Shown here in pieces: positions 9,180 through 54,694 of a stretch of DNA of 64,000 nt. How positions within the stretch are numbered: the first letter of the stretch is position 1; each line of letters opens with the position of its first letter. The notes beneath the pieces are model-generated. The model saw only the letters and a list, made by a program, of their open reading frames with translations. It had not been told where the DNA came from and made no database searches. Origin of the DNA: Eledone cirrhosa (lineage: Eukaryota); NCBI GenBank assembly GCA_964016885.1, contig OZ024740.1, positions 216,504,001-216,568,000 on the forward strand. The letters run 5' to 3'. Made by a program: the position numbers and the translations under genes.

Positions 9180-9710
9180 TGGCATATATGTAGACACTGA
9201 CACACACGTACACACTGACATCTATGTAGACACAATAGTGTACACTCACGCACACATACACACTGACATCTATGTAGACATAAGAGTGTACACACACATA
9301 CTGACATCTATGTAGACACAATAGTGTACACACACACTGACACACATACACACTGACATCTATGTAGACACAAGAGTGTACACACACACACACACTGACA
9401 TCTATGTAGACACAAGAGTGTACACACACACACACACACTGACATCTATGTAGAGACAATAGTGTACACACACACTGACACACATACACACTGACATCTA
9501 TGTAGACACAAGAGTGTACACACACACACACACACACACTGACATCTATGTAGACAATAGTGTACACACACACTGACACACATACACACTGACATCTATG
9601 TAGACACAAGAGTGTACACACATACACACACACATACACACTGACATCTATGTAGACACATGAGTGTACACACACACATACACACTGACATCTATGTAGA
9701 CACATGAGTG

Positions 9711-12902: not shown

Positions 12903-13400
12903 ATAATAATAAATTTGAAGACTAAAATCCAAAGAGGGCTCGCTAAGGATAAATATATATCAAATATATAAGAACCGTAGAGCAAATGTTTATTAAAATA
13001 ACAGACTAAAGTTTAAGCAAAGAATCGCTTATATATATATATCGCTTATATATATAAGTAGAAGGGATATTTAATTTGTTGGAAATTCCACAAATATAAA
13101 TGTTTATAACTGATTCAGGGCACTTGACAGATTTCTGGAGTAAATATTCAAGGATATTAAATAAATGGAAACTATATTTATAAAAGGAAAATTCAACTGA
13201 TAAGGTATGGTCCTTGGCTATGTCAAAATTTATAAAACACACTTTGTATTTTATCTGATGAAAGTGTACCAAGGTTTTGGTACCCTTGAAATATATATAA
13301 TAGAATAAATATGGTTTTATAAATATAGTTTCCATTTATTTAATATCGTTAAGGGTGAAAGCAGCGATTCTTTGCTTAAACTTTAATCTGTTATTTAAAT
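12899..13400. mobile_element. Nested PLE-type terminal fragments: family-3 HHR unit inside a family-2 foldback
   Basis: 12899-13028 matches 26507-26648 and 33192-33318; 13347-13400 is the inverted partial arm; inner ~13040-13347 resembles 37339-37780. Confidence 0.7.
13247..13307 (+). ncRNA. Type I hammerhead ribozyme (family 3)
   Basis: UAUUUUAU-CUGAUGA-AAGUGUACCA...UGGUACCCUU-GAAA-UAUAUA-UA^AUAGAAUA. Confidence 0.85.
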
Positions 13401-26139: not shown

Positions 26140-26629
26140 AAATGAAATCCTTATTGCTCCAATCAGTCCACAAACACTCGGCAAACATCCTAAACCAAAT
26201 GCCAACCTCTACTCATGGCTCCTGCCAAACCATACCCACCAAATTCGGCAAATCAAATGTGGACCACCCATCTTCCCAAACTTGGCATATGTAACCAGAC
26301 TGCAACAGCCAATAAATGGGGAAGACAGACTTTATCAAGATGCAGCTGTCAAATTATGCAGTTACTATATAATAAAACCAAAAAAGCTGTTATTATCTTA
26401 TCTATCCATCATATATATATATATGTATATATATATATGTGTGTGTGTATGTGTGTGTGTGTATATATGTGTGTGTCTGTGTATATGTGTGTGTATATAT
26501 ATATATAGTAATAATAATAGTAATAATAATAAATTTGAAGACTAAAATCCAAAGAGGGCTTGATAAGGATAAACATATATCAGATATATAAGAACCATAG
26601 AGCAAATATTTATTAAAATAACAGATTAA

Positions 26630-26680
26630 AGTTTAAGCAAAGAATCGCTGCTTTCACCCTTAACGGGATCTTCTGAAACT
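26630..26680 (-). ncRNA. Variant hammerhead ribozyme (U4A core, family 2)
   Basis: AGUUU-CAGAAGA-UCCCGUUAAGGGU-GAAAGCA-GCGAUUCUU-UGCU-U^AAACU. Confidence 0.65.
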
Positions 26681-27097
26681 AAAAAAGTCAATCTGTGAAC
26701 GCAGAAGTAAATACTTCAAAAAAACGTTGCAACCGAAGGAAGACAGGAAGACGATACTTTGGCTCGTGGAAACGTTCCCTGGCAAAGAACGGAAAAAATC
26801 GAAGATAATACGTCATTATTTGGTGCGGTGAAAACAATTACATGCAAAGACAAAACCACATTTATGGTATAAATGAAGTCGTAGACTAATATTTGAGTAG
26901 GTGGTTCATGGAGACTTCTCTGGCAATATCTTTGCGTGTAATTGTTTGCACCACACCAAATAATGACGTATTATCTTCGTTTTTTTCCGTTCTTTGCCAG
27001 GGAACGTTTCCACGATTCAAAGTATGGTCTTCCTGTCTTCCTTCGGTTGCAACGTTTTTTGAAGTATTTACTTCTGCGTTCACAGATTGACTTTTTT

Positions 27098-27148
27098 AGT
27101 TTCAGAAGATCCCGTTAAGGGTGAACGCAGCGATTCTTTGCTTAAACT
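27098..27148 (+). ncRNA. Variant hammerhead (family 2), additional GAAA>GAAC change
   Basis: Inverted twin of 26630-26680; probably inactive. Confidence 0.5.
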
Positions 27149-27686
27149 TTAATCTGTTATTTTAATAAATATATATATGTGTGTGTGTGTATATATATAT
27201 GCGTGTGTGTGTGTGTATATATATACGTGTGTGTGTGTATATATATGTGTGTGTGTATATATATATATGTGTGTATATATATATGTGTGTATATATATAT
27301 ATGTGTATATATATATATGTGTGTGTATATATATATGTGTATATATATATGTGTGTGTATATATATATATGTGTGTATATATATGTGTGTATATATATAT
27401 GTGTATAAATATATGTGTATATATATGTGTGTATATATATATATGTGTGTGTATATATATATATGCGTATATATATGTGTATATATGTATATATATATGT
27501 GTGTATATGTATATATATATATGTGTATATGTATATATATATGTGTGTATATATATATATGTATATATATGTATGTGTGTGTGTATATACATACACACAC
27601 ATACATATATACATATATACACATATATATACACATATATATATATATACACACACATATATATATATACACACACATATATATAA

Positions 27687-28068: not shown

Positions 28069-28526
28069 TATATAAAACACTAAATGTTTTATTACAGTGA
28101 AAACATGTTCTCATTAAGTCATCTAATAGTACCACATGTACTACATGTTCTTATTGTGTTCCTCCATCAGTGATTGAAGACTGGCTACACAAATGTTGAC
28201 ATTTATGTGTCTTCAGGTGGTTGATGACATGAATTCTTGCACCGAAATAATGCTTTCTGATTTAGGCACAAGGCTAACAATTTTTTGGAGCAGTCTATTA
28301 AATCGACCCTGTGCATTACTGGTATTTTATTTTATCGACTTCATAAGAATGAAAGGCGAAGCCAACCAGAACGTAAAGGGGCGTAACTCTGTGCTTCAAG
28401 GCATGTCTGATCCTCTACTTATACTGCCAATCCTCCACCCTTAACCAATGATGATAATTTTTTATTTCAACACAAAGATAGCAATTTGAGTAAATGGTGA
28501 AAGTCGATCACACTGGCCCCACCGCT

Positions 28527-28875
28527 GGTGCTTTTGTTTCTACCAACCCTAGTGCTGCTTTGTTTCTACCAACCCTAGTGCTGCTTTGTTTCTACCAACC
28601 CTAGTGCTGTTTTGTTTCTACCAACCCTAGTGCTGTTTTGTTTCTACCAACCCTAGTGCTGCTTTGTTTCTACCAACCCTAGTGCTGCTTTGTTTCTACC
28701 AATCCTAGTGCTGTTTTGTTTCTACCAACCCTAGTGCTGCTTTGTTTCTACCAACCCTAGTGCTGCTTTGTTTCTACCAACCCTAGAGCTGCTTTGTTTC
28801 TACCAACCCTAGTGCTGTTTTGTTTCTACCAACCCTAGTGCTGTTTTGATTCTACCAATCCTAGTGCTGTTTTGT
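28527..28875. repeat. 26-bp minisatellite, ~13 copies
   Basis: tagtgctg(c/t)tttgtttctaccaaccc. Confidence 0.95.
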
Positions 28876-30835
28876 TATTATTCACCCCAGAGTGGTGAAG
28901 AGCGAAACTGATATCAACAGGATTTGAACAAACGTTGCATTTCATTTTGTCCAACAGTCAAACAATTCTGCCAGTCTGAGGCCTTAATTTCTTTCATCTG
29001 CCACAAGGGCTGAACATGCTGACAATAATACATGTAAAGTATTGTTCAACAGTAACAATGAAGAACAATAATAATGGTTTCTTATATAGGCACAATGCCA
29101 GCAATTTTTTGGGGGAAGGGAAAGTCGATTAAATTGACCCCAGTGCATTACTGGTACTTTATTTTATTGACCCCGTAAGGATGAAAGGCAAAGTTAACCT
29201 CAACAACAACAACAGCAACTATAGATACTGAGCAGTAACAACAACAACAACTATAGATACTGAGCAGTAAGTGTACAACAACAACAACAACAACGTTCAG
29301 AGTTCAAATCCTGCTGGAGTTAGCCTTGCCTTTCATCCTTACGGTGTTGATAATATAAAATACCAGTAACACGCTGGGGTCAATTTAATCGACCCCCCCC
29401 CCCCCCCCAATGCCTTGTGCCAAAGGTAGAAACAATTATAATTGGTTAAAGTGTTGGCAGAATCAGTAGAGCATTGGACAAAATACTTTGTGGTATTTGT
29501 TTGGACATTTTCTGAGTTCAAATCCTGCTGAGGTCAGTTTTATCTTTTGTCCTTCCTTGACCAATAATAATTCCTCCTTTCGTCTCAATTGCTGGCCTTG
29601 TGCCTAAATTACAAACATTGGATTGGCAGTATCGGGTTCAAATCTCGCCGAGGTTAACTTTGCCTTTCATCCTTACGGGGTTGATAAAATAAAGTACCAG
29701 TAATGTACTCTGGGTAATTGCTGGCCTTGTGCCAAAAGTAGAAACAATTATTATTAACAACATTCGGCATCTTTTCTTTATATTATCTCCTTGTCTCGCT
29801 CTCTCACTCTCTTTCTCTCTCTCTCTTTCTTTCTCTCTCTCTCTTTCTTTCTCTCTCTCTCTTTCTCACTCTCTTTCTTTCTCTCTTTCTCACTCTCTTT
29901 CTTTCTCTCTTTCTCACTCTCTTTCTTTCTCTCTTTCTCACTCACTTTTTCTCTCTCTCACTCTCTTTCTCTCTCCCTCTCTCTTCTCACTCTTTCTCTC
30001 TTCCTCACTTTCTTTCTCTCTCCCTTTCTCATTGTCTCTTTCTCTTTTCCCTTTCTCATTCTCTCTTTCTCTTTTCCCTTTCTCTTTTTCACTTTCTCTT
30101 TCTTTATCACTCACTCTCATTCTCTCTCTCTCACTCTCAGTTTAGTACCTTCTTTCTTAAACTCTCCTGTTTTACTTTCTTTTCGTCCCCTCTCTCTATC
30201 TTCCTCTGTCTTTCATCCCCCTCATTTCACTCCCCCTGTCATATTATTTCTCTGCCTCTCCACTTTTCTATTCCCATCTTTCATATTTTATATTTCTTCT
30301 TTTTATTTATCATTTTATTTTCTTTATCTTTACACACACATGCTTATACATACATATCGATATATATATATGTAAGTGTGCATATATATATATATGGTGG
30401 CTGCCAACTCGTTTTCGAGTACGGCCACTACTTTATATCCATGTAGGAGAACTCGTACCGATGCACTGAACGTGTGTGACTTTTTAGTCCAGCCAGCGAC
30501 TTGAAAACTCTGGTACAAACACTACACTTGTGACAATTATTGACACATAGTGCTGGGCCCATGGTACCATGTGATGACAAGTGCAGAGATATCTCCAGAT
30601 ATAAAGCAATGCCTGTGCCGTGAAGCTTTTATAGTGAGCAAAGGCACTGCACAAAGCCAGTCCCACTCTCTTAACCAAGATGATATTTACCAAAAAGACG
30701 AACAAGTCAACATCATTGGATACCATCAGGGTTGCAGGTGTTATATCAGAGTTTTCCTTCTCCTAGAATTCTGCCTTGACAAAGGCTAAGGCGCCATCTC
30801 TCTATCTATATATATATATGCATATATATATATAT

Positions 30836-31856: not shown

Positions 31857-31964
31857 AATGTAGGAGGTGAGTTTTATTGTAGTACAATAAAGCAATGCAG
31901 ATATCGGATAAGTTTGATATAATATGATATGAAGGTTAAAAACATGAGACATGATATGAGACAT

Positions 31965-32078
31965 GAGACATGATATGAAGGTTAAAAAACACTTGTGAAT
32001 AGTGCAGTTTTAAATCAACATATGTTGATTTAAAACTGCACTATTCACAAGTGTTTTTTAACCTTCATATCATGTCTC
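31965..32078. repeat. Perfect 114-bp spacerless palindrome
   Basis: Centred on caacat|atgttg (32021/32022). Confidence 0.9.
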
Positions 32079-32080
32079 CC

Positions 32081-32151
32081 TATTTTATCTGACGAAAAAG
32101 CAAATGTCATTGCATGATGATATTTGTTTTTGAAATGCGCATAATAAAATA
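32081..32151 (+). ncRNA. Type I hammerhead ribozyme, 16-bp stem II
   Basis: UAUUUUAU-CUGACGA-AAAAGCAAAUGUCAUU-GCAU-GAUGAUAUUUGUUUUU-GAAA-UGCGCA-UA^AUAAAAUA. Confidence 0.9.
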
Positions 32152-33118: not shown

Positions 33119-33191
<73 letters not shown>

Positions 33192-33195
<4 letters not shown>

Positions 33196-33428
33196 ATAAT
33201 AATAAATTTGAAGACTAAAATCCAAAGAGGGCTTGATAAGGATAAATATATATCAAATATATAAGAACCGTAGAGCAAATATTTATTAAAATAACAGATT
33301 AAAGTTTAAGCAAAGAATCTCGTTTTTCACTCTTAACGGGATCTTCTGAAACTAGTTTCGGAAGATCCCGCTAAGGGTGAAAGCAGCGATTCTTTGCTTA
33401 AACTTTAACCTGTTATTTTGATAAATAT
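33192..33428. mobile_element. Family-2 foldback with two abutting head-to-head hammerheads (33303-33353 -, 33354-33404 +)
   Basis: Spacerless palindrome 33279-33428 centred on aaact|agttt; + copy core CGGAAGA, - copy has a damaged stem III. Confidence 0.75.
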
Positions 33429-33553
33429 ATATATATATATAGTAATAATAATAAAATTGAAGACTAAAATCCGATTCTTTGCTTAAACTTTAATCTGTTA
33501 TTTTAATAAATATATATATATATCTATATCATATATATATATATATATATATC

Positions 33554-33586
<33 letters not shown>

Positions 33587-33600
33587 AGGAACCAGTAAGA

Positions 33601-33692
33601 CCCCGACAGCTGAGCTCAAGCCGTTTCGACGGCTAATTCTGGACTAAATGAACATTTATCCTGGTATTTAAATAGCCGATCTTCTCAAGGGG
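33601..33692 (-). ncRNA. Hammerhead ribozyme, U3-A8 variant (inverted pLTR copy)
   Basis: Reverse complement of 36076-36167. Confidence 0.8.
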
Positions 33693-34049
33693 TAATTCCA
33701 TATATGGTCAAAGTGATTGTCAAAAATCAGTAGTAATTCTGTGGTTGCAGATTAGTAGGGGAGATGGTGGCTAAACCTGCCAGTAGGAGAAAGAGGGGAG
33801 GGGGTGGAGTAGACCCAATCAAGCGTTGGTAGTGCCAGCTACAGCTGGGCATGAGGTCAAAGAAGATACAGGGGAGGGGGAGGGGGAGGAAGTCGGAACG
33901 GTAGGTAGAACAATGGGGGGTAAAAATAGGAAAGAAAAAATACTGAGAGTGAAGAAAAGCAAATAAGTGTAAAGAAAAAATTAAATTCTACGACCTAGGT
34001 GTCAGGCTATTGTTAGGCGAGAATAAAATAAAGAAAGAAAGAAAGAAGT

Positions 34050-34976
34050 AAACCTAATGACAATCTGCACTACATCCACCGCCGATCAAACCATCCTAGG
34101 AACATCACAAACAACCTGGTCAAAAACATCTCCCTCCGCATATCCCGTTTGTCAGCTAATGAGCGGATATTCGATGAACATGCGCCTTATTACAACCAGG
34201 CCCTCAAGCGGAGTGGTTTCCGGGAGGAAATATCCTACTGTCCAGATCCCATTAGCGGAACCAGCAGGAGACACCGCCGCTCACGCAATGTAACATGGTT
34301 CAATCCTCCCCACAACGCAGAGGTGACTACTCCCATCGGGAAACTATTCTTTAGGCTCATTGAAAAACACTTCCCATTACAACACCGCTACCACAACATA
34401 ATTAACAAAAATACCATCAAACTCTCTTACAGCACTACACCAAACTTCGCACAAAACATCGTCTCCTCTAACAACAAAAAACTCAACCCCGATGGCAGAA
34501 ATAACCTAAATAGCAGTGGAGAACCGACCAGGAGGTGTAACTGCCCGGATAGATCTATTTGCCCACTCGACAATAGATGCAGAGACCGTAATGTGATCTA
34601 CCAGTGCAACGTGAGGACGGATACCTCCAACAAAGCCTATATAGGACTTACCGCATGTGACTTCAAGACCCGGCTATACCAACATAGACATACCTTCCGA
34701 AACCCGGCCCGGCGTCACGCCACTACACTTTCGGGCCACATATGGGACCTCAAGGACAACAACATTACCTATGATCTCACTTGGAGATTACTGTCCAGAG
34801 CCAATTCTTACACGGGAGGACGCCGTCCGTGCAATTTATGCTCGGAGGAAACTTTACAAATGCTGTTTTCGACGGACCAACTCCTAAACAAGAAAGATGA
34901 ACTGGTTACTGCATGTAAACATAGATTGCGTAGGACTTACCTCGCCCTCAAACCCCATAATGACCCGGGGGGGTAG
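34050..34976 (+). CDS. PLE RT thumb, CxCx5Cx5C linker and GIY-YIG endonuclease (5'-truncated, uninterrupted)
   Basis: KPNDNLHYIHRRSNHP, WFNPP, CNCPDRSICPLDNRC, VIY...YIGLT..FKTR...H, CNLC..E, LLNK..EL...CKH. Confidence 0.9.
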   Translation, partial: KPNDNLHYIHRRSNHPRNITNNLVKNISLRISRLSANERIFDEHAPYYNQALKRSGFREEISYCPDPISGTSRRHRRSRNVTWFNPPHNAEVTTPIGKLFFRLIEKHFPLQHRYHNIINKNTIKLSYSTTPNFAQNIVSSNNKKLNPDGRNNLNSSGEPTRRCNCPDRSICPLDNRCRDRNVIYQCNVRTDTSNKAYIGLTACDFKTRLYQHRHTFRNPARRHATTLSGHIWDLKDNNITYDLTWRLLSRANSYTGGRRPCNLCSEETLQMLFSTDQLLNKKDELVTACKHRLRRTYLALKPHNDPGG

Positions 34977-36075
34977 ACTAGGGCTATAACACCCCAGTTG
35001 CCGATTTTGCAATGGGTAACCCCTGCTTGCCAAGGAAGACGTAAGATCTTCTTTGTATTCTTTTATCGCATCCTTTATTTCCTTCCCCCCTCTCTCCTTT
35101 GTCCTTCTACCCCAGCTCTTCTCCTTTGTCGGCGTCTTTTCTCGCCCACCCGAGGATGCCCTTTGGCCCCATGTAGCCTTAGTACCCCCACTCCCCCCTC
35201 CCCTAGTCTTTGATAGATTTGGCGGACTCCGCCCTTTATAGCAGTTGGCTTAGACCCCGGATACTTGCCCCCCTTTTCCGACCGCTCCCACTATTCTCTG
35301 TGCCCTCTATATTTCTTAGTGGCACTTATGCCTTATTTTTTCGTTTCAGTATTTCTTGCTTCGCTTTTCTTTTGGGCGGGGTGGATTCTGAACTTATTTC
35401 TCCGTATTCTACCTTTATTTCGTACGAACTTTCTTGTAGCTTGTTTTAGATCTTTTAGAGTTAGCATTAGTATATATTTTTCCCGGGACTCAGAATTATT
35501 ATGTCGTACAAGTTCACTTTGCTGCACTGGGTCGTTGCTGGCCCGGGATGGAAACCTTTATTGTTTATTTCGTGGTAGTCTCTTTAGTATTTTGGCCCCT
35601 TTTGTTGACCAGTCACCGTATCATTTACGTACTTATACCTCTTAAAAGGGTCCTTGCCTAATTCGTCCCACCTAGTTCTTTTACTTATTTCCTTATTTAT
35701 TTATTTATTTATTTATTTACTTCTTTCTTTCTTTCTTTATTTTATTCTCGCCTAACAATAGCCTGACACCTAGGTCGTAGAATTTAATTTTTTCTTTACA
35801 CTTATTTGCTTTTCTTCACTCTCAGTATTTTTTCTTTCCTATTTTTACCCCCCATTGTTCTACCTACCGTTCCGACTTCCTCCCCCTCCCCCTCCCCTGT
35901 ATCTTCTTTGACCTCATGCCCAGCTGTAGCTGGCACTACCAACGCTTGATTGGGTCTACTCCACCCCCTCCCCTCTTTCTCCTACTGGCAGGTTTAGCCA
36001 CCATCTCCCCTACTAATCTGCAACCACAGAATTACTACTGATTTTTGACAATCACTTTGACCATATATGGAATTA

Positions 36076-36167
36076 CCCCTTGAGAAGATCGGCTATTTAA
36101 ATACCAGGATAAATGTTCATTTAGTCCAGAATTAGCCGTCGAAACGGCTTGAGCTCAGCTGTCGGGG
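36076..36167 (+). ncRNA. Hammerhead ribozyme, U3-A8 variant, in PLE pLTR
   Basis: CCCC-UUGAGAA-GAUCGGCUA...UAGCCGUC-GAAACGGCU-UGAGCUC-AGCUGUC^GGGG. Confidence 0.8.
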
Positions 36168-36319
36168 TCTTACTGGTTCCTATTACCCACTCTACTACCT
36201 CAAGTATTGAGTACTTTGGTGCGTTATGGTCCACCTGGTTCCTTACCACATTTCCTTCGTTATTATATATATATATATATATATCATATATATATATATA
36301 TATATATCATATATATATC

Positions 36320-37321: not shown

Positions 37322-37383
37322 TATATATATATATATACATACGATATATTAACAAATGGAAACTATATTTATAAAACCATATT

Positions 37384-37448
37384 TATTTCATTATACATAT
37401 TTCAAGGACACCAAATTAAATTATGGTGTGCTTTCATCAGATAAAATA
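37384..37448 (-). ncRNA. Type I hammerhead ribozyme (family 3)
   Basis: UAUUUUAU-CUGAUGA-AAGCACACCA...UGGUGUCCUU-GAAA-UAUGUA-UA^AUGAAAUA. Confidence 0.8.
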
Positions 37449-37577
37449 TAATATAGATCAGTTTTATAAATAAATATTGACATACCCTTAAAGAATTCGA
37501 CCATTTTTGTTGGATGCTCCCGGATAGTCATTCTTTAAGGGTATGTCAATATTTATTTATAAAACTGATCTATATTA

Positions 37578-37642
37578 TATTTTATCTGATGAAAGCACAC
37601 CATAATTTAACTTGGTGTTCTTGAAATATGTATAATTAAATA
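37578..37642 (+). ncRNA. Type I hammerhead ribozyme (family 3)
   Basis: Inverted twin of 37384-37448; one stem I mismatch. Confidence 0.75.
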
Positions 37643-38141
37643 AATATCGTTTTATAAATATAGTTTCCATTTGTTAATATATCGTATTTTTACTTCAATA
37701 ATTTATTGAGTGCTTTATATCAGTTATAAAAATATTTGATTGTTGTATCCCAACAATTTAAATAGAACTTCTACATATATATGCATATATATTTATATGT
37801 AATAAATATAGACAGCTACTGACCTGGTTCCCACCTGACTGTAAAATACAAAATAGTTAGTTACTATATTCTTTAGATCCATTAATTAATTAAATTCATT
37901 TTCTATATCATTTATTCATATTTTCTTTTGTGGTCTGTTCACTTCCTCCCCCCTTCTCCTCAATTTACATTCCAACTAAGTACATACATGCACACATATA
38001 CACCTCTATATGTACATATATAATTATCTATCTATGCATCTGTATGTATTGCCATATATATAATAGGAAAATGTCTAACTCCGACAGCAGAGCTCATATA
38101 CATATATATATTCATGTGTATATATATATATATATATATTC

Positions 38142-40579: not shown

Positions 40580-40683
40580 GTATACAATATATATATATAT
40601 ATATATGTAGCGGTTGTCTCCCTTGTTTTGATTAGGATCTAGACGGGAAGTGGAACCCTTTCTGCAACTTCCGGTCAGAGCCC

Positions 40684-40690
40684 TATAAAA
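40684..40690 (+). promoter_or_regulatory. Putative LTR TATA box
   Basis: tataaaa, present at the same position in both LTRs. Confidence 0.5.
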
Positions 40691-40972
40691 CTAACAACTT
40701 TGGGCTTCCTCTCTCTCTTTGCCTTTTCGGCACCAGGTCAAGAGTCTTCTCATTTGGCTCTGCCATTAATTTGGCCAACAGGCGCCTGGCCTTAGCCAGG
40801 CGCCCTCTGCCAGCCGCGTTTGCCTGGCAATCAAAACGGTAACTACTAACTTTGTTTCATTCTAACATCTATCTTTGACATGTCAAGTATTCTATCTACC
40901 GTTAATTAAATATTATATACACAAACAATGTCTCGTTTTGTTACATTCATGCAACCAGTACCCTCGCTATAT

Positions 40973-42310: not shown

Positions 42311-42936
42311 TTATGTAGCGGTTGTCTCCCTTGTTTTGATTAGGATCTAGACGGGAAGTGGAACCCTTTCTGCAACTTCCGGTCAGAGCCCTATAAAACT
42401 AACAACTTTGGGCTTCCTCTCTCTCTTTGCCTTTTCGGCACCAGGTCAAGAGTCTTCTCATTTGGCTCTGCCATTAATTTGGCCAACAGGCGCCTGGCCT
42501 TAGCCAGGCGCCCTCTGCCAGCCGCGTTTGCCTGGCAATCAAAACGGTAACTACTAACTTTGTTTCATTCTAACATCTATCTTTGACATGTCAAGTATTC
42601 TATCTACCGTTAATTAAATATTATATACACAAACAATGTCTCGTTTTGTTACATTCATGCAACCAGTAATGTCGCTATATATATAATGTATACAATATAT
42701 ATATATATATATAATGTATACAATATATATATATATATATATATAATGTATACAATATATATATATATATATAATGTATACAATATATATATATATATTA
42801 GAATTGGTGCTCTGAAATAGCGATATATATATGAATGTATATATAGTGTATTTTTCATTTTTTGCTGGACCGGCAACTGCTCTGTATAATCAGTTCCTGA
42901 TTATTACTGGAATTCTATAAGAATCCAACATTCATA

Positions 42937-44513: not shown

Positions 44514-46329
44514 ATATATATATATATATTTTACTAGCGTGGAAAATGGACATTAAACGATGATGATGATTATATATGTGCACACTGATATATGTGTGTG
44601 TTGTATGCATTAATGCATTGCTAAGTTTAAATTATGTCATATATAATTACAGTGTCTACATATATCAGCTCACACACACATATTTACTAACCCACACACA
44701 CATATATTTCCTAACACACACATACACATACATAAGTGTATACTTTACTACATACACACAAACACGTGCAGACATGCAATCAATCAGGAAAGAGATGTTA
44801 CTGAGCTATTTGTGTGTATGTGTGTGTGTGTTTGTATGTGCGTGTGTCTGTATGTGTGGAGACAGACAAAGGGAGAAGGAGCTGTAGAAGGAAGATAAGT
44901 GAAATTGGTAGAACATTTCTTTTTGCAATAATGTGGGTGTCTGTGCGTATGGGTGTGACTGTGTGTATTATATGTGAATGCATATGTGTATATATATGTG
45001 TGTATGTATATATATATGTGTGTGTATGTGTATGTAGGTGTGTGTCTATGTATATATATGTGTGTGTGTGTGCGTGTATATATATATATATATATATGTG
45101 TATGTAGGTGTGTCTGTGTGTATATATATATATATGTGTGTGGCTGTGTGTGTGTATATATGTATGTGTGTATGCATGTGTGTGTGTTTGTGTGTGCCAG
45201 TGTGTGTGTGTATATATATATATATGTGTGTGTATGTGTGTCTGTGTGCAAGTTTAGGTGTGTATATATGTATATGTGTGTCAGCTACGTGCACCCGTTA
45301 ACATCACTTTTGTTATACTAACTGCTTTATTGACATTTTCTATCTCTTATAAAAGACACAGCCTATGATGATGAAATAATTTTTGAAAATAATCAAAAAT
45401 TAAGAAGGACAATAATATAATATAACTTTCTGATTATTAAGCTGGTGTTTACAACTTCATTTCTGGTTCTTGTATAAAAGTACAGTGGAAGGTTTTGAGA
45501 TAAATATAAACACTTTAAGATAAACAGCTTTGTATTAAAGAAGAATTAGTTCCAGGCATTTAAGTATGAAAAGTGTTGGATAATTCTTTTTTATTATCTA
45601 AAATAAAACAAAAAGAATTGTTAGATGTCTCAAGTGTTCTGCTTCAAATTAATCATTGTTAGTTAATTCTCATTAAAACACCTGACATGATAAGTTAGTG
45701 TTAATTATTATACAGGCAAGAAGGGTGGTGGATTGGTAGTAATCGGTAGAGCATCGGTCAACATGCATTATGGCATAGAGTTACGCCCCTTTACGATCTG
45801 AGTTCAAATCCTGTCATGGTTAGCTTTGCTTTTCATGATTATGAGGTCGATAAAATAAAGTACCAGTAATGCACTGGGGTCGATTTAATTGACCTCCTAC
45901 CCCCAAAATTGTTAGTCTTGTGCCTAAATCAGAAACCAATTATTATACAGGCAAGAATCAACTAAATGTAAAACTGCTGAAGTGTTGTCTTTTAAATGGT
46001 TGGAGTAAATTGTTTTATTTTAAAACTTAAGTGGTGAGATTTTTCACATTATTGTTTCAACCTTTTTTTTTGGCATATAAGGTAAAAAATTGGCCGAATA
46101 GTTAGAACATTGGATAGACTGCTTTGTGGTATTCATTCCAGCTCTCTGCTCTCTGAGTTTAGACCCTGTCGAGGTCAACTTTGCCTTTCATCTGTCTAGT
46201 AATCGGGTTGATTCTTCCTGTATATCTCTTTCTCACTTTTTCTCTCTATTACTCTCTATCCTTCTCTGGAAGAGATTTACTGTTTTCAGACTTGGAGAGG
46301 TGATGGGCCCTACCAGGTTTTAAAATGTT

Positions 46330-47636
46330 CTGATAAAAGTACTAACTTGATCTCTGATACATCTAGGAGAGCTGTAGCTCTGATAAAGTACTGATTTGAC
46401 CTGTGATCTATAACACACCTAGAAGAGCTGTAGCTCTGATAAAGTACTGACTTGATCTGTGATATATCTAGGAGCGATGTAGCTCTCATAAAGTACTGAC
46501 TTGATCTGTGAGGTATCTAGGAGAGCTGTAGCTCTCATAAAGTACTGGCTTGATCTGTGGTATATCTAGGAGAGCTGTAGCTCTGATAAAGTACTGGCTT
46601 GATCTGTGGTATATCTAGGAGAGCTGTAGCTCTGATAAAGTACTGGCTTGATCTGTGGTATATCTAGGAGGTATGTAGCTCTGATAAAGTACTGACTTGA
46701 TCTGCGGTATATCTAGGAGGGATGTAGCTCTGATAAAGTACTGACTTGATCTGTGGTATATCTAGGAGGGATGTAGCTCTGATAAAGTACTGACTTGATC
46801 TGTGATATATCTAGGAGGGATGTAGCTCTTATAAAGTACTGACTTGATCTGTGATATATCTAGGAGAGCTGTAGCTCTGATAAAGTACTGGCTTGATCTG
46901 TGGTATATCTAGGAGAGCTGTAGCTCTGATAAAGTACTGGCTTGATCTGTGATATATCTAGGAGGGATGTAGCTCTGATAAAGTACTGGCTTGATCTGTG
47001 ATATATCTAGGAGGGATGTAACTCTGATAAAGTACTGGCTTGATCTGTGGTATATCTAGGAGGGGTGTAACTCTGATAAAGTACTGGCTTGATCTGTGGT
47101 ATATCTAGGAGGGATGTGGCTCTGATAAAGTACTGACTTGATCTGTGATATATCTAGGAGGGATGTGGCTCTGATAAAGTACTGACTTGATCTGTGGTAT
47201 ATCTAGGAGAGCTGTAGCTCTGATAAAGTACTGACTTGATCTGTGATATATCTAGGAGGGATGTGGCTCTGATAAAGTACTGACTTGATCTGTGGTATAT
47301 CTAGGAGGGATGTAGCTCTGATAAAGTACTGACTTGATCTGTGGTATATCTAGGAGAGCTGTAGCTCTGATAAAGTACTGACTTGATCTGTGGTATATCT
47401 AGGAGAGCTGTAGCTCTGATAAAGTACTGACTTGATCTGTGGTATATCTAGGAGAGCTGTAGCTCTGATAAAGTACTGACTTGATCTGTGGTATATCTAG
47501 GAGAGCTGTAGCTCTGATAAAGTACTGACTTGATCTGTGGTATATCTAGGAGGGATGTAGCTCTTATAAAGTACTGACTTGATCTGTGATATATCTAGGG
47601 GGGATGTAGCTCTGATAAAGTACTGACTTGATCTGT
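46330..47636. repeat. 49-bp minisatellite, ~26 copies
   Basis: ctctgataaagtactg(a/g)cttgatctgtg(g/a)tatatctaggag(agc/gga)tgtag; period 49 (46581 to 46630). Confidence 0.95.
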
Positions 47637-48603
47637 ATGTTCTACTCAACCAACATCACTGTGGATAAAATGACATAAAATGATGCTGATGGTTATAAAT
47701 GTAAAATGGAAGGATAATATATCTATCTACCAATGCAACATCTACACATGTATATATACACAAGTAAATACACAAATATGTACACAAGTATATAGAGCAG
47801 TCTTAAATTTCTCATGAGATATTGACTTTAGGTCCTTTCTTACATGCTATGAATTAAATATAAAATACATACACCCACACATACATGTATGTATACAAAC
47901 AAGTGGAGGAGGATATATAGTGTTAACATGTAAGATATTTGTGATGATGATGATGATCTACTGCTTAGTTATGGTGTGTTGGGATTAATGGTGAAGTGTG
48001 CAGGGTGTTGAGTGGTGTGAATGAGTGTTTTCCTGTCATCAAAGTGAATGACAGATTTGTAATTCTGACATTTCACACCAAATCCTAAACTAATATGACA
48101 CACTGTCTCTCTATTTTGGTGAAATACATGCAATGAAATCTAGGTTGCACTGGTCTATTCTAATTAATGTGATGCTGTATAAAAGTAAATTAACCATACA
48201 TAGAAATATAGGTGAACTTGCATGTTTATTGGCTGTTTGTATAGTTCTACTAGGCTGTATATAATTGTTCATATTATTATTGAGTAGACTTCTAGTATGA
48301 AACAACCCTGGTGGTCCTGTATATGTATATATATGAGGTAGTCCTGTATATAAGATGTCCAGTTTGTAGTTTCCTGTCAAACTTCATCACTGATCAATAG
48401 ATAGTCTAACTGTATAGCCATCATGTCTTTATTGATGGTTTGTTGCACTGCTAAAATATACAGTATATACAGTCTGCATCATTTTATCACATAGAGTACA
48501 AATGACTCCTATGCTAATTCCTATGCATTTTTCTTGTTGATATTGTTACTGCTCTTACATGAACCTTTTTCTATATTTATAAAGTTTGTTCTTAGCAAAT
48601 TTC

Positions 48604-48792
48604 ACCATCAGCTCTTCTCAACAGAAGGTTAACACCTTCAGCTCTTCTCAGCAGAAGGCTGATGTCCTTAGCTCTTCTTAACAGAAGGCTGACACCATCA
48701 GTTCTTATCAACGGAAGGCTGACACCATCAGCTCTTCTTAACAGAAAGCTGATGTCCTCAGCTCTTCTCAACAGAAGGCTGATGTCATCAGC
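48604..48792. repeat. 30-bp tandem repeat x6
   Basis: catcagctcttctcaacagaaggctgacac variants. Confidence 0.85.
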
Positions 48793-52194: not shown

Positions 52195-52514
52195 TATATA
52201 TATATATGTATATATGATGTATATATATATAATGTATATCTGTATATGTAAACGGAAAAAATGAAACGAAATTTCATTTCTCACTCTTAGTACAGCTGTT
52301 ACTTAAATATAAGTATGTATACGTACATACATATATGTATACAGATGTATAGTAGTATGTATATATATATACATACATGCACACATATATATATGTACGT
52401 ATGGATTCACCGAACATTTATTATAATGCTCGGTGTGTTTGTAAACAAACATCCCATATTAAGCCGTAGTGTCTAACAACCATCGTTGCTCGTTTGTTCA
52501 ACACTGACAAAGGA

Positions 52515-52557
52515 ACACTGTACTAGTTTCAAGCTTATTAGCTATCGTCAGCAACAT
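52515..52557 (-). ncRNA. Minimal type I hammerhead ribozyme
   Basis: AUGUUG-CUGACGA-UAGCUAAUAAGCUU-GAAA-CUAG-UA^CAGUGU. Confidence 0.8.
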
Positions 52558-52865
52558 ATACCTTCCTGCCAGATGGTTGAACGTCTGAAAGTATATACTT
52601 TCCTTATGCATATTAACGGCTGAGCAGCCTAATTTGCATATCGAGTGAGTTAATCGGCCGGGGTACCGAAAACGTATACATACTTATATTTAAGTAACAG
52701 CCGTACTAAGAGTGAGAAATGAAATTTTGTTTCATTTTTTCCGTTTATCATTTTCGGTACCCCGGCCGATTAACTCACTTGATATGCAAATTAGGCTGCT
52801 CAGCCGTTAATATGCATAAGGAAAGTATATACTTTCAGACGTTCAATCATCTGGCAGGAAGGCGT

Positions 52866-52908
52866 ACGTTGCTGACGATAGCTAATAAGCTTGAAACTAG
52901 TACAGCGT
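52866..52908 (+). ncRNA. Minimal type I hammerhead ribozyme
   Basis: ACGUUG-CUGACGA-UAGCU-AAUA-AGCUU-GAAA-CUAG-UA^CAGCGU. Confidence 0.85.
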
Positions 52909-53040
52909 TCCTTTGTCAGTGTTGAACAAATGAGCAACGATGGTTGCTAGACACTACGGCTTAATTCGGGATGTTTGTTTACAAACACACCAAGCATTAT
53001 AATAAATGTTCGGTGAATCCATACATATATATATGTGTGC

Positions 53041-54567
53041 ATGTATTTGTCAACCTTGAGAAAGCCTTTGACAGAGTTCCACGTGCTGTAATCTGGTGGG
53101 CTCTTAGAAAACTAGGAGTAGATGAATGGCTTGTGAAAGCGGTACAAGCCATGTATAGGGGAGCAGTCAGCAAAGTTAGGATTAGCAATGAGTATAGCGA
53201 GGAATTTAGCGTACAGGTTGGGGTCCACCAGGGCTCTGTTCTTAGCCCTCTCCTGTTCATCATAGTCCTGCAGGCAATAACGGAGGAGTTTAAGACCGGA
53301 TGCCCATGGGAACTCCTGTATGCTGATGACCTCGCACTCATAGCTGAATCTATGGTAGAACTAGAGAATAAATTCCAAACCTGGAAGCAGGGACTAGAAA
53401 GAAAGGGCCTCAAAGTCAACATGACAAAGTAGACGAGAAAACAGAACCCAGATCCCCTCAGGGAAATGGCCTTGTTCAGTATGTAGGAAAGGTGTAGGTA
53501 GGAACTCCATTCTCTGCCCCAAATGCAAACAATGGGTACACAAGAGATGTAGCGGGATCTCAGGAAGCTTAATTAAGAATATAGGATTCACATGCAGCAG
53601 CTGTGCTGAGACAGCAAACAGCAAACAGCCACAGGAAACAAGTACCACCAATCTCTGGGAGGGCCCTGTAGAAACAGTAGACAGCTTCTGCTACCTAGGT
53701 GACCGAATTAGCAACAGAGGTGGGTGTTCAGAAAGTGCATTAACTAGGGTAAGAACGGGATGGAAGAAGTTTAGGGAACTACTACCACTGCTAGCTGCAA
53801 AAGGCTTCTCCCTCAGAATGAAAGGCAGACTGTATGATGCGTGTATCCGAACAGCGATGTTGCATGGTAGTGAGACCTGGGCGCTGAAGGTGGAAGACTT
53901 ACGTAGATTAGAGAGAAACGAAGCCTGCATGCTCCAATGGATGTGTAACAATAATACACGTGAACGACAAAGCATAAATGAATTGAGAGAGAGACTGAGC
54001 ATAAGAGGAATCAAATGCTATGTGCAGGAGAGGCGGTTGTGCTGGTATGGACATGTGATGCGTATGAAGGATGACAGCTGCATAAAAAGGTGCAGAGCAC
54101 TAGAAGTTGATGGAAACCGCGGAGTGGGGAGACCCAAGATGACCTGGGATGAGGTGATAAAAACCGACCTTACCCAATTACACCTCTCAAAGATAATGAC
54201 ACATGACCGTGACTTCTGGCGTCACGCAGTAATACAGAGTACCCGACCTCCCATGGGTACAAGCTGAAGCATATAGACAATATGCCCCCACACCCCCCAC
54301 CGCAAGGTGGTCGTGGAGGTGCCACGGCAAAAAAGCACCCAGCCCACACTGTAAAGTGGACGTGTAGGCGCCACGAAAAAGCACCCAGCACTCACTGTAA
54401 ATGAGGTTGGTGTTAGGAAGGGCATCCAGCTGTAGAAATCAAGCCAAATCAGTTCCTGTATGAGCAAGGCATGGTCAGCCGACCAGACACTGCCCACAAC
54501 AGGACAACCTGCCTAACCCATGCTAGCGTGGAAGAACGGACGTAAAACGGTGATGATGATGATGATA
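53041..54567 (+). mobile_element. RTE LINE subfamily A, 5'-truncated; RT plus PHD finger; frameshift at ~53430
   Basis: FVNLEKAFDRVPR, GVHQGSVLSPLLF, LLYADDLAL, C4HC3 motif, GSETW, GRPKMTW; (gat)n tail. Confidence 0.95.
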
Positions 54568-54694
54568 CTACTGTACGTCTGTATACATATATGTATGTAT
54601 GTATACATACTTGTATATGTATATATATGTATATGTATATATATATATATGTGTCTGTGTGTGTGTGTATATGTATATATATATATATATATAT

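What the first reader, a model, noticed from the sequence alone, without database searches (positions are those of the whole stretch)
52249..53024. Non-coding foldback unit with an intact hammerhead on each strand
Seen: 274-bp inverted arms, each with a minimal HHR pointing outward, and a second inverted copy of the spacer outside the left arm. The same head-to-head design recurs in unrelated families (26606-27172, 33279-33428, 37339-37687). Inference: either a recurring product of PLE inverted/twin priming that keeps only the pLTR, or a class of self-cleaving, hairpin-forming non-autonomous retroelements that could also supply dsRNA for siRNA production or ADAR editing.
Basis: partly seen in the sequence, partly recalled or inferred. 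Interest (0 to 1): 0.8.

Follow-up and report, generated by a model that had tools for sequence, protein, structure and literature searches.

The report
Two-armed insertion of a hammerhead retrozyme
The foldback is one landing site of a 428-base non-coding ribozyme repeat with thousands of copies, and its mirror arms join at a different point in almost every copy while one arm nearly always stops at a fixed short end and the other at a fixed long end, which is likely the mark of two Penelope-type reverse transcriptases copying one, probably circular, RNA from both sides of a single cut.

Summary
The foldback and both type I hammerheads are real, but the foldback is not amplified as a unit. It is a copy of a 428-nt tandem, non-coding hammerhead repeat (a non-LTR retrozyme; 5,281 exact ribozyme matches in the genome). 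Half of unbiased sites (25 of 50) are inverted head-to-head, with 61 different junctions in 63. The 'second spacer' is the Penelope-type tail. The right arm resumes behind a LINE at 54565, and a 9-10 bp target duplication frames the whole unit.

Arm ends fall at two fixed sites about 60 nt apart and pair short+long: 18 of 18, and 15 of 15 in a sister family. The arms share subfamily alleles (91% against 60% shuffled), and arm lengths are independent. One sister-family insertion is a 9.3-kb palindrome of 7+13 near-identical units.

Best reading (inferred): two-ended target-primed reverse transcription on one, probably circular, RNA. Inverted arms with a one-sided tail are known for Penelope elements, and this scan noted similar foldbacks in other genomes. 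My paper searches found neither this signature in retrozymes nor the strict pairing. No coding partner was found and no RNA holder was listed.

The parts
52241..52250 (+). Left copy of the target-site duplication (9-10 bp; the last base may belong to the element)
   Evidence: exact 10-nt match to 54612-54621
52250..52674 (-). Left arm: one full 428-nt-type monomer read outward; ends at the long (L) site, unit position about 424
   Evidence: locus L001
52250..52311 (-).
52515..52557 (-). Type I hammerhead, left arm (core 52551-52521)
52672..52674 (.). Head-to-head junction, 3-nt overlap between the two 5'-truncated arm ends (unit positions 427 and 350); not seen in any other copy examined
52672..53046 (+). 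Right arm, first part (unit positions 350-428, then 1-302)
52866..52908 (+). Type I hammerhead, right arm (core 52872-52902; predicted cut after GUA at 52902)
53047..54564 (+). Later insertion: 5'-truncated LINE with a (GAT)n tail (RTE-type by recall); about 14 nt of the arm are missing at the site
54565..54611 (+). Right arm, resumed; ends at the short (S) site, unit position about 362
   Evidence: (I12, 92% complementary to the left arm)
54612..54621 (+). Right copy of the target-site duplication
37339..37782 (.). Family C foldback: terminal-repeat ends of a coding Penelope-type element, S arm left, L arm right
13049..13349 (.). Family C-like foldback, L left and S right, nested inside a family B insertion
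26482..27172 (.). Family B foldback: 3' end of another element with open frames upstream in other copies, L left and S right; no hammerhead by my descriptor
33190..33513 (.). Two adjoining short family B foldbacks (33190-33428 and about 33440-33513), each L left and S right by eye

Best explanation
The stretch is a single insertion of a 428-nt non-coding hammerhead repeat (a non-LTR retrozyme) whose two arms were likely made at the moment of insertion by two Penelope-type reverse transcriptases copying the same, probably circular, RNA from the two strands of one staggered cut. Shown in sequence: tandem monomer, ribozyme motif, (TA)n targets, two sharp 3' ends about 60 nt apart (S and L), head-to-head inversions with individual junctions, one S arm and one L arm per inversion, shared alleles between arms, and one target duplication around both arms where the target is informative. 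Inferred: a borrowed Penelope RT/GIY-YIG protein, probably a dimer, binds the tail region, nicks both strands about 10-12 bp apart, and primes one cDNA at L and the other at S. Each cDNA runs an independent distance, through the ribozyme site and round the unit if the template is a circle. The two cDNA 3' ends are then joined by end joining with 0-5 nt of overlap or short fillers, and the gaps are filled. The foldback is a by-product and would not be re-copied as such; the hammerhead would act in tandem transcripts (as a dimer) to release monomers.
For: Pairing: 18 of 18 outward-facing end pairs within 2 kb on C1:1-67.8 Mb are S+L, none L+L or S+S (2.7e-6 if ends paired at random; two of the 18 are a local duplicate). 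Unbiased loci: 19 S+L, 1 S+partial tail, 1 L+partial tail and 7 unclassifiable of 28. Sister family: 15 of 15 classifiable of 17 inversions (read). Coding family C: 10 S+L, 1 L+L and 1 unclear of 12. One template: 575 of 629 diagnostic sites agree between arms (91%) against 60% +/- 3 in 2,000 shuffles; rare variants shared 47, private 402, so the arms are not being homogenised. Independent arms: length correlation rho 0.09; junction spacing uniform (KS p 0.59, n 44; sister family p 0.85, n 17); in 20 of 40 the S arm runs further by less than one unit, which a DNA copy-back cannot give; overlap of 2 nt or more in 21 of 37 filler-free junctions against 17% at random. One event: informative duplications of 10-17 bp in 5 of 43 events, including 4 of the 5 whose L flank is not pure TA; cross-pair control 7 of 1,802. 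Circle: a palindrome of 6.83 + 12.94 units with 0 and 1 mismatch at lag one unit and 0 of 2,696 between arms; a 31-unit arm with flat 99.5% identity at all lags. In vitro, a Penelope protein cuts and extends both strands, starts at two internal sites bounding the tail, and is predicted to be a dimer (PMC11167929).
Against: No coding partner was found, so the protein is inferred. In vitro, PMC11167929 saw no difference in start site between the two strands, and uncleaved RNA was the main template; this fits a linear multimer as well as a circle. L+L inversions exist: L012 (arms of different subfamilies, 7 of 16 alleles shared), L007 (14 of 14 shared, degenerate L end) and L140 in family C. 5' ends are not clearly enriched at the ribozyme cut (7 of 88 in unit positions 150-170 against 4.3 expected, p 0.14). 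Some arrays have higher-order periods made after insertion (L079: lag-2 identity 100% but only 96-98% to its own inverted arm), so array uniformity can arise later. Neither cleavage nor expression was observed. The test for locally templated fillers was inconclusive.
Confidence: 0.72

Rival explanations
1. Self-priming: an antisense RNA or a cDNA folds back and primes its own copy, giving a hairpin whose ends the endonuclease then trims at S and L before insertion (self-priming on an antisense template is the model of Arkhipova 2013; trimming is suggested in Craig 2021).
For: Explains shared alleles, head-to-head polarity and short inverted overlaps; proposed in PMC3846280.
Against: Spacers between the arm starts are uniform over the unit, not short loops; arm lengths are uncorrelated; 23 of 63 junctions have fillers; simple DNA copy-back is excluded for 20 of 40 events. 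In vitro data show target-primed starts on both strands. The version with RNA self-priming and trimming is not strictly excluded.
Confidence: 0.13
2. Two separate RNA molecules, or two successive insertions, fill the two sides of one break or one TA tract.
For: L012 has two L ends and arms of different subfamilies; TA tracts are hit repeatedly (L091, L124, flanks of L231).
Against: 91% allele agreement against 60%, 12-fold more shared rare variants than shuffled pairs, S+L pairing and one duplication around both arms. Two transcripts from one active source locus would also share alleles, but would not explain the S+L rule.
Confidence: 0.07
3. The family is only the truncated terminal repeat of a coding Penelope element that I did not find, as families B and C appear to be.
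For: True for family C (635-aa frame between the repeats) and probably B. Only five kinds of coding element were compared.
Against: In the tandem copies examined the tail runs straight into the next monomer; arrays of 10 to more than 40 units; unpaired 5' flanks share no upstream sequence except inverted tails and unrelated repeats.
Confidence: 0.05
4. A new class of self-cleaving hairpin retroelements amplified as a foldback unit.
For: Thousands of foldbacks probably exist, and a read-through RNA would be a long duplex.
Against: 61 of 63 junctions differ; two further repeats with identical junctions were local duplicates (L083, L086) and were dropped before the count; half of the sites have no inversion; the duplex hides the ribozyme.
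Confidence: 0.02

Closest known systems
Animal non-LTR retrozymes (Cervera and de la Pena 2020, PMC7229834; Li, Clavereau and Pollet, bioRxiv 10.64898/2026.07.22.740005)
   Same: Non-coding tandem unit of 150-450 bp (428), type I hammerhead in each unit, GC 37%, monomers to long arrays, duplication longer than 4 bp, coding Penelope elements in the same genome. A U-U pair at the base of stem II is also described for the axolotl HHR_Amex2.
   Different: Word searches of both papers found no inverted arrangement, and the preprint has no 'tail' or 'initiation'. Here half of the sites are head-to-head palindromes with fixed S and L ends. Circular RNA was shown there and could not be tested here.
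Insertion structure of endonuclease-bearing Penelope-like elements (Arkhipova 2013, PMC3846280; Craig 2021, PMC8557442)
   Same: Partial tandems, an adjacent inverted 5'-truncated copy, head-to-head polarity, a tail often at one end only, 8-10 bp duplications, and (for Naiads) (TA)n targets.
   Different: No ORF; tail about 60 nt rather than 30-40; both arms can be multimeric. The passages I saw describe the tail as optional and give no count of S+L pairing or of allele sharing, and Arkhipova 2013 explains the inversion by self-priming.
PAc (Poseidon of Anolis) in vitro (Frangieh 2024, PMC11167929)
   Same: Two internal start sites bounding the tail, AT-rich targets, both strands cut and extended, dimer predicted.
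   Different: No strand difference in start site was seen in the pooled assay, and pairing within one event was not reported in the parts I read. There the start sites lie within about 90 nt of the ribozyme cut; here they are 210-270 nt downstream.
L1 twin priming (recalled, no paper read)
   Same: Second target strand primes on the same RNA; head-to-head junction with microhomology.
   Different: In L1 the two cDNAs copy adjacent, non-overlapping parts and the second start is variable. Here both start at fixed neighbouring sites and copy the same sequence, giving a true palindrome.

Membership tests
non-LTR retrozyme | Tandem unit of 150-450 bp | tested here: met
   428 nt, arrays of 2 to more than 40 units
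non-LTR retrozyme | Type I hammerhead in each unit | tested here: met
   descriptor; present in every unit listed, a few with core changes; compensatory changes in stems I and II against the sister family; not among the Rfam matches shown
non-LTR retrozyme | No protein coding, no LTR structure, low GC | tested here: met
   no long frame other than microsatellite read-through; GC 37%; PBS and PPT were not searched for separately
non-LTR retrozyme | Target duplication longer than 4 bp when present | tested here: met
   10-17 bp in 5 of 43 events; control 7 of 1,802
non-LTR retrozyme | Expressed as linear and circular monomer RNA; self-cleavage | not testable with these tools
   no RNA holder listed
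Penelope-type insertion | Partial tandem with 5' truncation; inverted 5'-truncated copy head-to-head | tested here: met
   65 head-to-head against 1 tail-to-tail adjacency
Penelope-type insertion | Tail: two alternative sharp 3' ends | tested here: met
   5,433 L and 3,826 S exact ends, controls 0
Penelope-type insertion | Shared terminal sequence with an identified coding element | tested here: inconclusive
   none among five kinds of coding element compared; the search was partial
autonomous Penelope-like element | ORF with RT and GIY-YIG | tested here: not met
   no ORF in the unit; coding elements elsewhere in the genome do have both domains (L197)
foldback or MITE-like element amplified as a unit | Same internal junction in dispersed copies | tested here: not met
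   61 of 63 distinct

The most novel reading that the evidence does not exclude
Penelope-type retrotransposition runs as an asymmetric twin reaction. One dimeric enzyme on one circular ribozyme-processed RNA primes both strands of a single staggered cut, one subunit always at the S site and the other at L, and both can roll round the circle, writing multi-kilobase perfect palindromes in one step. This one mechanism would explain tandems, pseudo-LTRs, inverted copies and the one-sided tail, and retrozymes would be shown to be direct passengers of it.
Probability: 0.45. Interest if true: 0.78.

Novelty: new variant of a known kind. Interest (0 to 1): 0.52.

Why it matters
How Penelope elements make their tandem and inverted structures is named as unresolved in Craig 2021, and the link between retrozymes and Penelope proteins rests on co-occurrence and phylogeny. 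Here a very large retrozyme group (36,366 ribozyme matches for the wider pattern) carries the full Penelope insertion signature. The S+L rule gives a sharp prediction for the existing in vitro system. It also means that thousands of long inverted repeats in this genome would be by-products of insertion, with possible but untested effects on double-stranded RNA and genome stability.

Tried and rejected
Rfam scan: only microsatellite-driven miRNA matches below the gathering scores, discarded.

Coding partner: flanks of 5' ends, ORFs in all loci, two protein searches and six long stretches and a tail comparison gave none.

Expression: no RNA holder listed. Contigs of four runs of unknown kind only showed the family and many different joints; not used as evidence.

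Higher-order dimer periods in L079 and L046 as a sign of dimeric circles: rejected for L079, whose inverted arm is only 96-98% like the units, so the period arose after insertion.

Conservation of the ribozyme core (1.3% against 2.2% divergence): not used, because most loci were chosen by an exact core match.

Tandem neighbours share alleles as arms do (408 of 437): fits a circle or a uniform multimer, so not decisive.

Templated fillers: the control was badly matched, inconclusive. The first duplication test was too loose (control 12.6%) and was replaced.

An 'S+S' pair in L091 was reclassified as unclassifiable: its left end lies in the microsatellite next to a TA run. A family B 'L+L' in the window is a script merge of two adjoining events. 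A mirror-assembly artefact for L231/L232 was considered: its flanks hold another foldback family at 95%, not a mirror image.

Rows dropped before counts: opposite-strand duplicates among L013-L028; L004 (same site as L075); second copies in L083 and L086; L116 (same structure as L112); L125 and L130 (covered by L142). L082-L092 were picked for being S+L and are not independent support for the rule.

Full report
1. Observation. The arms and the extra inverted spacer copy are present as described (296 nt at 94%; 76 nt at 97%). A type I hammerhead descriptor finds one motif on each strand, pointing outward, among 5 hits in the window against a mean of 0.07 in 30 shuffles. Rfam shows no hammerhead among the 150 of 188 matches listed. 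The motif is CUGACGA, a 4-bp stem II with a U-U base, GAAA, a palindromic 2-bp stem III, a GUA cut site and a 6-bp stem I. The right arm is broken at 53047 by a truncated LINE (PF00078) and resumes at 54565, so the unit runs from 52250 to 54611.

2. What the unit is. The window lies in a 3.0-Gb assembly; that it is an animal genome is my inference from its repeats. The element is a 428-nt monomer found singly, in partial tandems and in arrays. The 37-nt ribozyme core has 5,281 exact matches, control 0. A sister family of about 468 nt has 9,439 and the wider pattern 36,366. The two families are 72% alike, with compensating changes in hammerhead stems I and II and in a tail hairpin. The unit has no coding frame and 37% GC. 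This meets the sequence criteria of non-LTR retrozymes as given in PMC7229834 (passages read).

3. Is the foldback a unit? I fetched the 50 sites behind the first 100 ribozyme matches on contig 1. 25 of 50 carry an inversion (very short inverted arms can be missed). Over all family A loci there are 65 head-to-head joints and 1 tail-to-tail adjacency. After dropping two local duplicates, 61 of 63 junctions differ in 5-nt bins. The distance between the two arm starts is uniform over the unit. The foldback therefore forms anew at each insertion.

4. Two ends, always paired. 3' ends fall at unit position about 362-368 (S) or about 424 (L), each followed by TA-rich target. Exact end patterns give 5,433 L and 3,826 S ends, controls 0. 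Among the 176 ends listed in C1:1-67.8 Mb, all 18 outward-facing pairs within 2 kb are S+L (chance 2.7e-6; two are a local duplicate). The unbiased loci give 19 S+L, 1 S+partial tail, 1 L+partial tail and 7 unclassifiable of 28. The best-hit set gives 8 S+L, 1 S+partial, 3 L+partial, 1 L+L and 3 unclassifiable of 16. In the sister family I fetched 25 of the 26 sites listed; 17 are inverted and all 15 classifiable ones are S+L (read). Family C gives 10 S+L, 1 L+L and 1 unclear; family B gives 5 S+L, 1 unclear and 1 script merge of two S+L events (those queries contained the tail, so only L+S against L+L is tested). The window copy obeys the rule: L on the left, S at 54611.

5. One event, one template. 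Where the target is informative, an exact duplication frames both arms: 5 of 43 events (10, 12, 12, 12 and 17 bp; the window copy is the 10), including 4 of 5 whose L flank is not pure TA, against 7 of 1,802 cross pairs. At 20 polymorphic positions the two arms agree at 575 of 629 comparisons against 60% in shuffles (maximum 72%). They share 47 rare variants against 402 private ones (10.5%; shuffles 0.9%), so they began alike and decayed separately. The clearest L+L case, L012, agrees at only 7 of 16, as two templates would; L007 is L+L with agreeing arms and stands against the rule. The window arms differ from the commonest letters at 7 of 321 and 9 of 322 positions.

6. How the arms were made. 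Arm lengths are uncorrelated (rho 0.09). The L arm reaches further in 15 of 40, the S arm by a unit or more in 5, and by less than a unit in 20; the last group cannot come from a cDNA copying back on itself. Junctions have 1-8 nt overlap in 29, fillers in 23, blunt joints in 8 and fall in the microsatellite in 3 of 63. Exact overlap of 2 nt or more occurs in 21 of 37 filler-free joints against 17% at random. This is what two independent cDNAs joined end to end would leave. PMC11167929 (parts 1-2 of 4 read, covering the results) shows a Penelope protein cutting and extending both strands and starting at two internal sites that bound the tail. It also reports no strand difference in start site and uncleaved RNA as the main template, which tempers my model. 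Arms often pass through the ribozyme site, so the template was a circle or an uncut multimer. A sister-family palindrome of 6.83 + 12.94 units with a single mismatch and a 31-unit arm with flat identity favour a monomer circle (my estimate 0.6), as proposed for Penelope tandems in PMC4209133 (passages). Later expansion does occur (L079), so uniform arrays alone do not prove it.

7. The ribozymes in the foldback. Hammerheads with such a short palindromic stem III cleave poorly alone and better as tandem dimers (PMC4209133). The foldback has one sense copy per strand, and a read-through RNA is predicted to pair almost fully, so self-cleaving hairpin function is unlikely (inference). Double-stranded RNA effects are possible but untested; no RNA holder was listed.

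8. The other window units. 37339-37782 is the terminal repeat of a coding element: a copy elsewhere has a 635-aa frame between direct repeats plus an inverted arm, related to an ORF with RT and GIY-YIG hits (E 3e-10). 26482-27172 and 33190-33513 belong to a family with open frames upstream in other copies (Penelope-like by recalled motifs, no Pfam support) and no hammerhead by my descriptor. The shared design is thus the common Penelope insertion signature. No coding partner for family A was found among five kinds compared.

9. What is known. Inverted 5'-truncated copies, head-to-head polarity, duplications of 8-10 bp and a tail at one end are described in PMC3846280 and PMC8557442 (passages); the former explains them by self-priming. 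The retrozyme preprint 10.64898/2026.07.22.740005 (part 1 of 5 and word searches) links retrozymes to Penelope elements by distribution and phylogeny and has no mention of inversion or tail. Searches for retrozyme + head-to-head (0 papers), Penelope-like + twin priming + inverted + tail (one review, listing only), and searches turned up no count of the pairing. Subscription papers and supplements were not seen and may hold one. This scan's earlier notes report similar foldbacks as ordinary Penelope insertions in other genomes; I took two paper leads (PMC3846280, PMC4209133) and the idea of checking 5' ends at the ribozyme from them.

10. Verdict. A real feature, and a member of a known class (non-LTR retrozyme) showing a known Penelope architecture. 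What lifts it above routine is the strict short+long pairing of same-template arms and the multimeric palindromes, which point to a specific and testable two-ended mechanism. Confidence: identity as a retrozyme about 0.9, formation at insertion about 0.97, two-ended priming about 0.72, circular template about 0.6. Interest 0.52.

Noticed in passing
L231:1610-9901 + L232:1-968 (G000:C1:30,831,609-30,840,868): Sister family (468-nt unit, 72% alike, 9,439 ribozyme matches): a 9.3-kb palindrome of 6.83 + 12.94 units with one mismatch in all, S end left and L end right, in a TA tract; apparently a very young insertion.
   Followed up: partly
family A unit positions 118-125: 5' ends pile up at the 5' strand of ribozyme stem I: 8 of 116 against 2.2 expected (p 0.002, window chosen after the fact). 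Could be a transcription start or an RT stall.
   Followed up: partly
family A unit positions 35-42 (window about 52784-52791): An octamer ATGCAAAT about 80 nt upstream of that pile. By recall, newt satellite 2 retrozymes use an snRNA-type promoter with an octamer; one paper search did not confirm it. One sister-family variant lacks the motif.
   Followed up: partly
L197:300-800 and 9380-9560: A two-ORF coding Penelope-type family (RT and GIY-YIG hits) with no hammerhead by my descriptor also shows an S end and an inverted L end. Its S end faintly resembles family A's L end (low-complexity, weak lead for a partner).
   Followed up: no
G000:C1:51,772,400-51,793,800 (L080, L081): A family A array of more than 40 units with a four-unit period near one end, one unit of which has two changes in the catalytic core: satellite-like expansion after insertion.
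   Followed up: partly
window 32078-32151 (+) and 31960-32080: A further hammerhead with a long (about 17 bp) stem II next to an inverted repeat; family not studied.
   Followed up: no
window 33585-34052 and 35716-36183: 468-nt perfect inverted repeats around a Penelope-like open frame (34032-34973): a young insertion of a coding element.
   Followed up: no
window 46329-47636: Tandem array with a period of about 98 nt; smaller arrays at 28519-28892 and 48603-48792.
   Followed up: no
window 40604-40972 and 42312-42680: 369-nt direct repeat, 99% identical, 1.7 kb apart.
   Followed up: no
   Followed up: no
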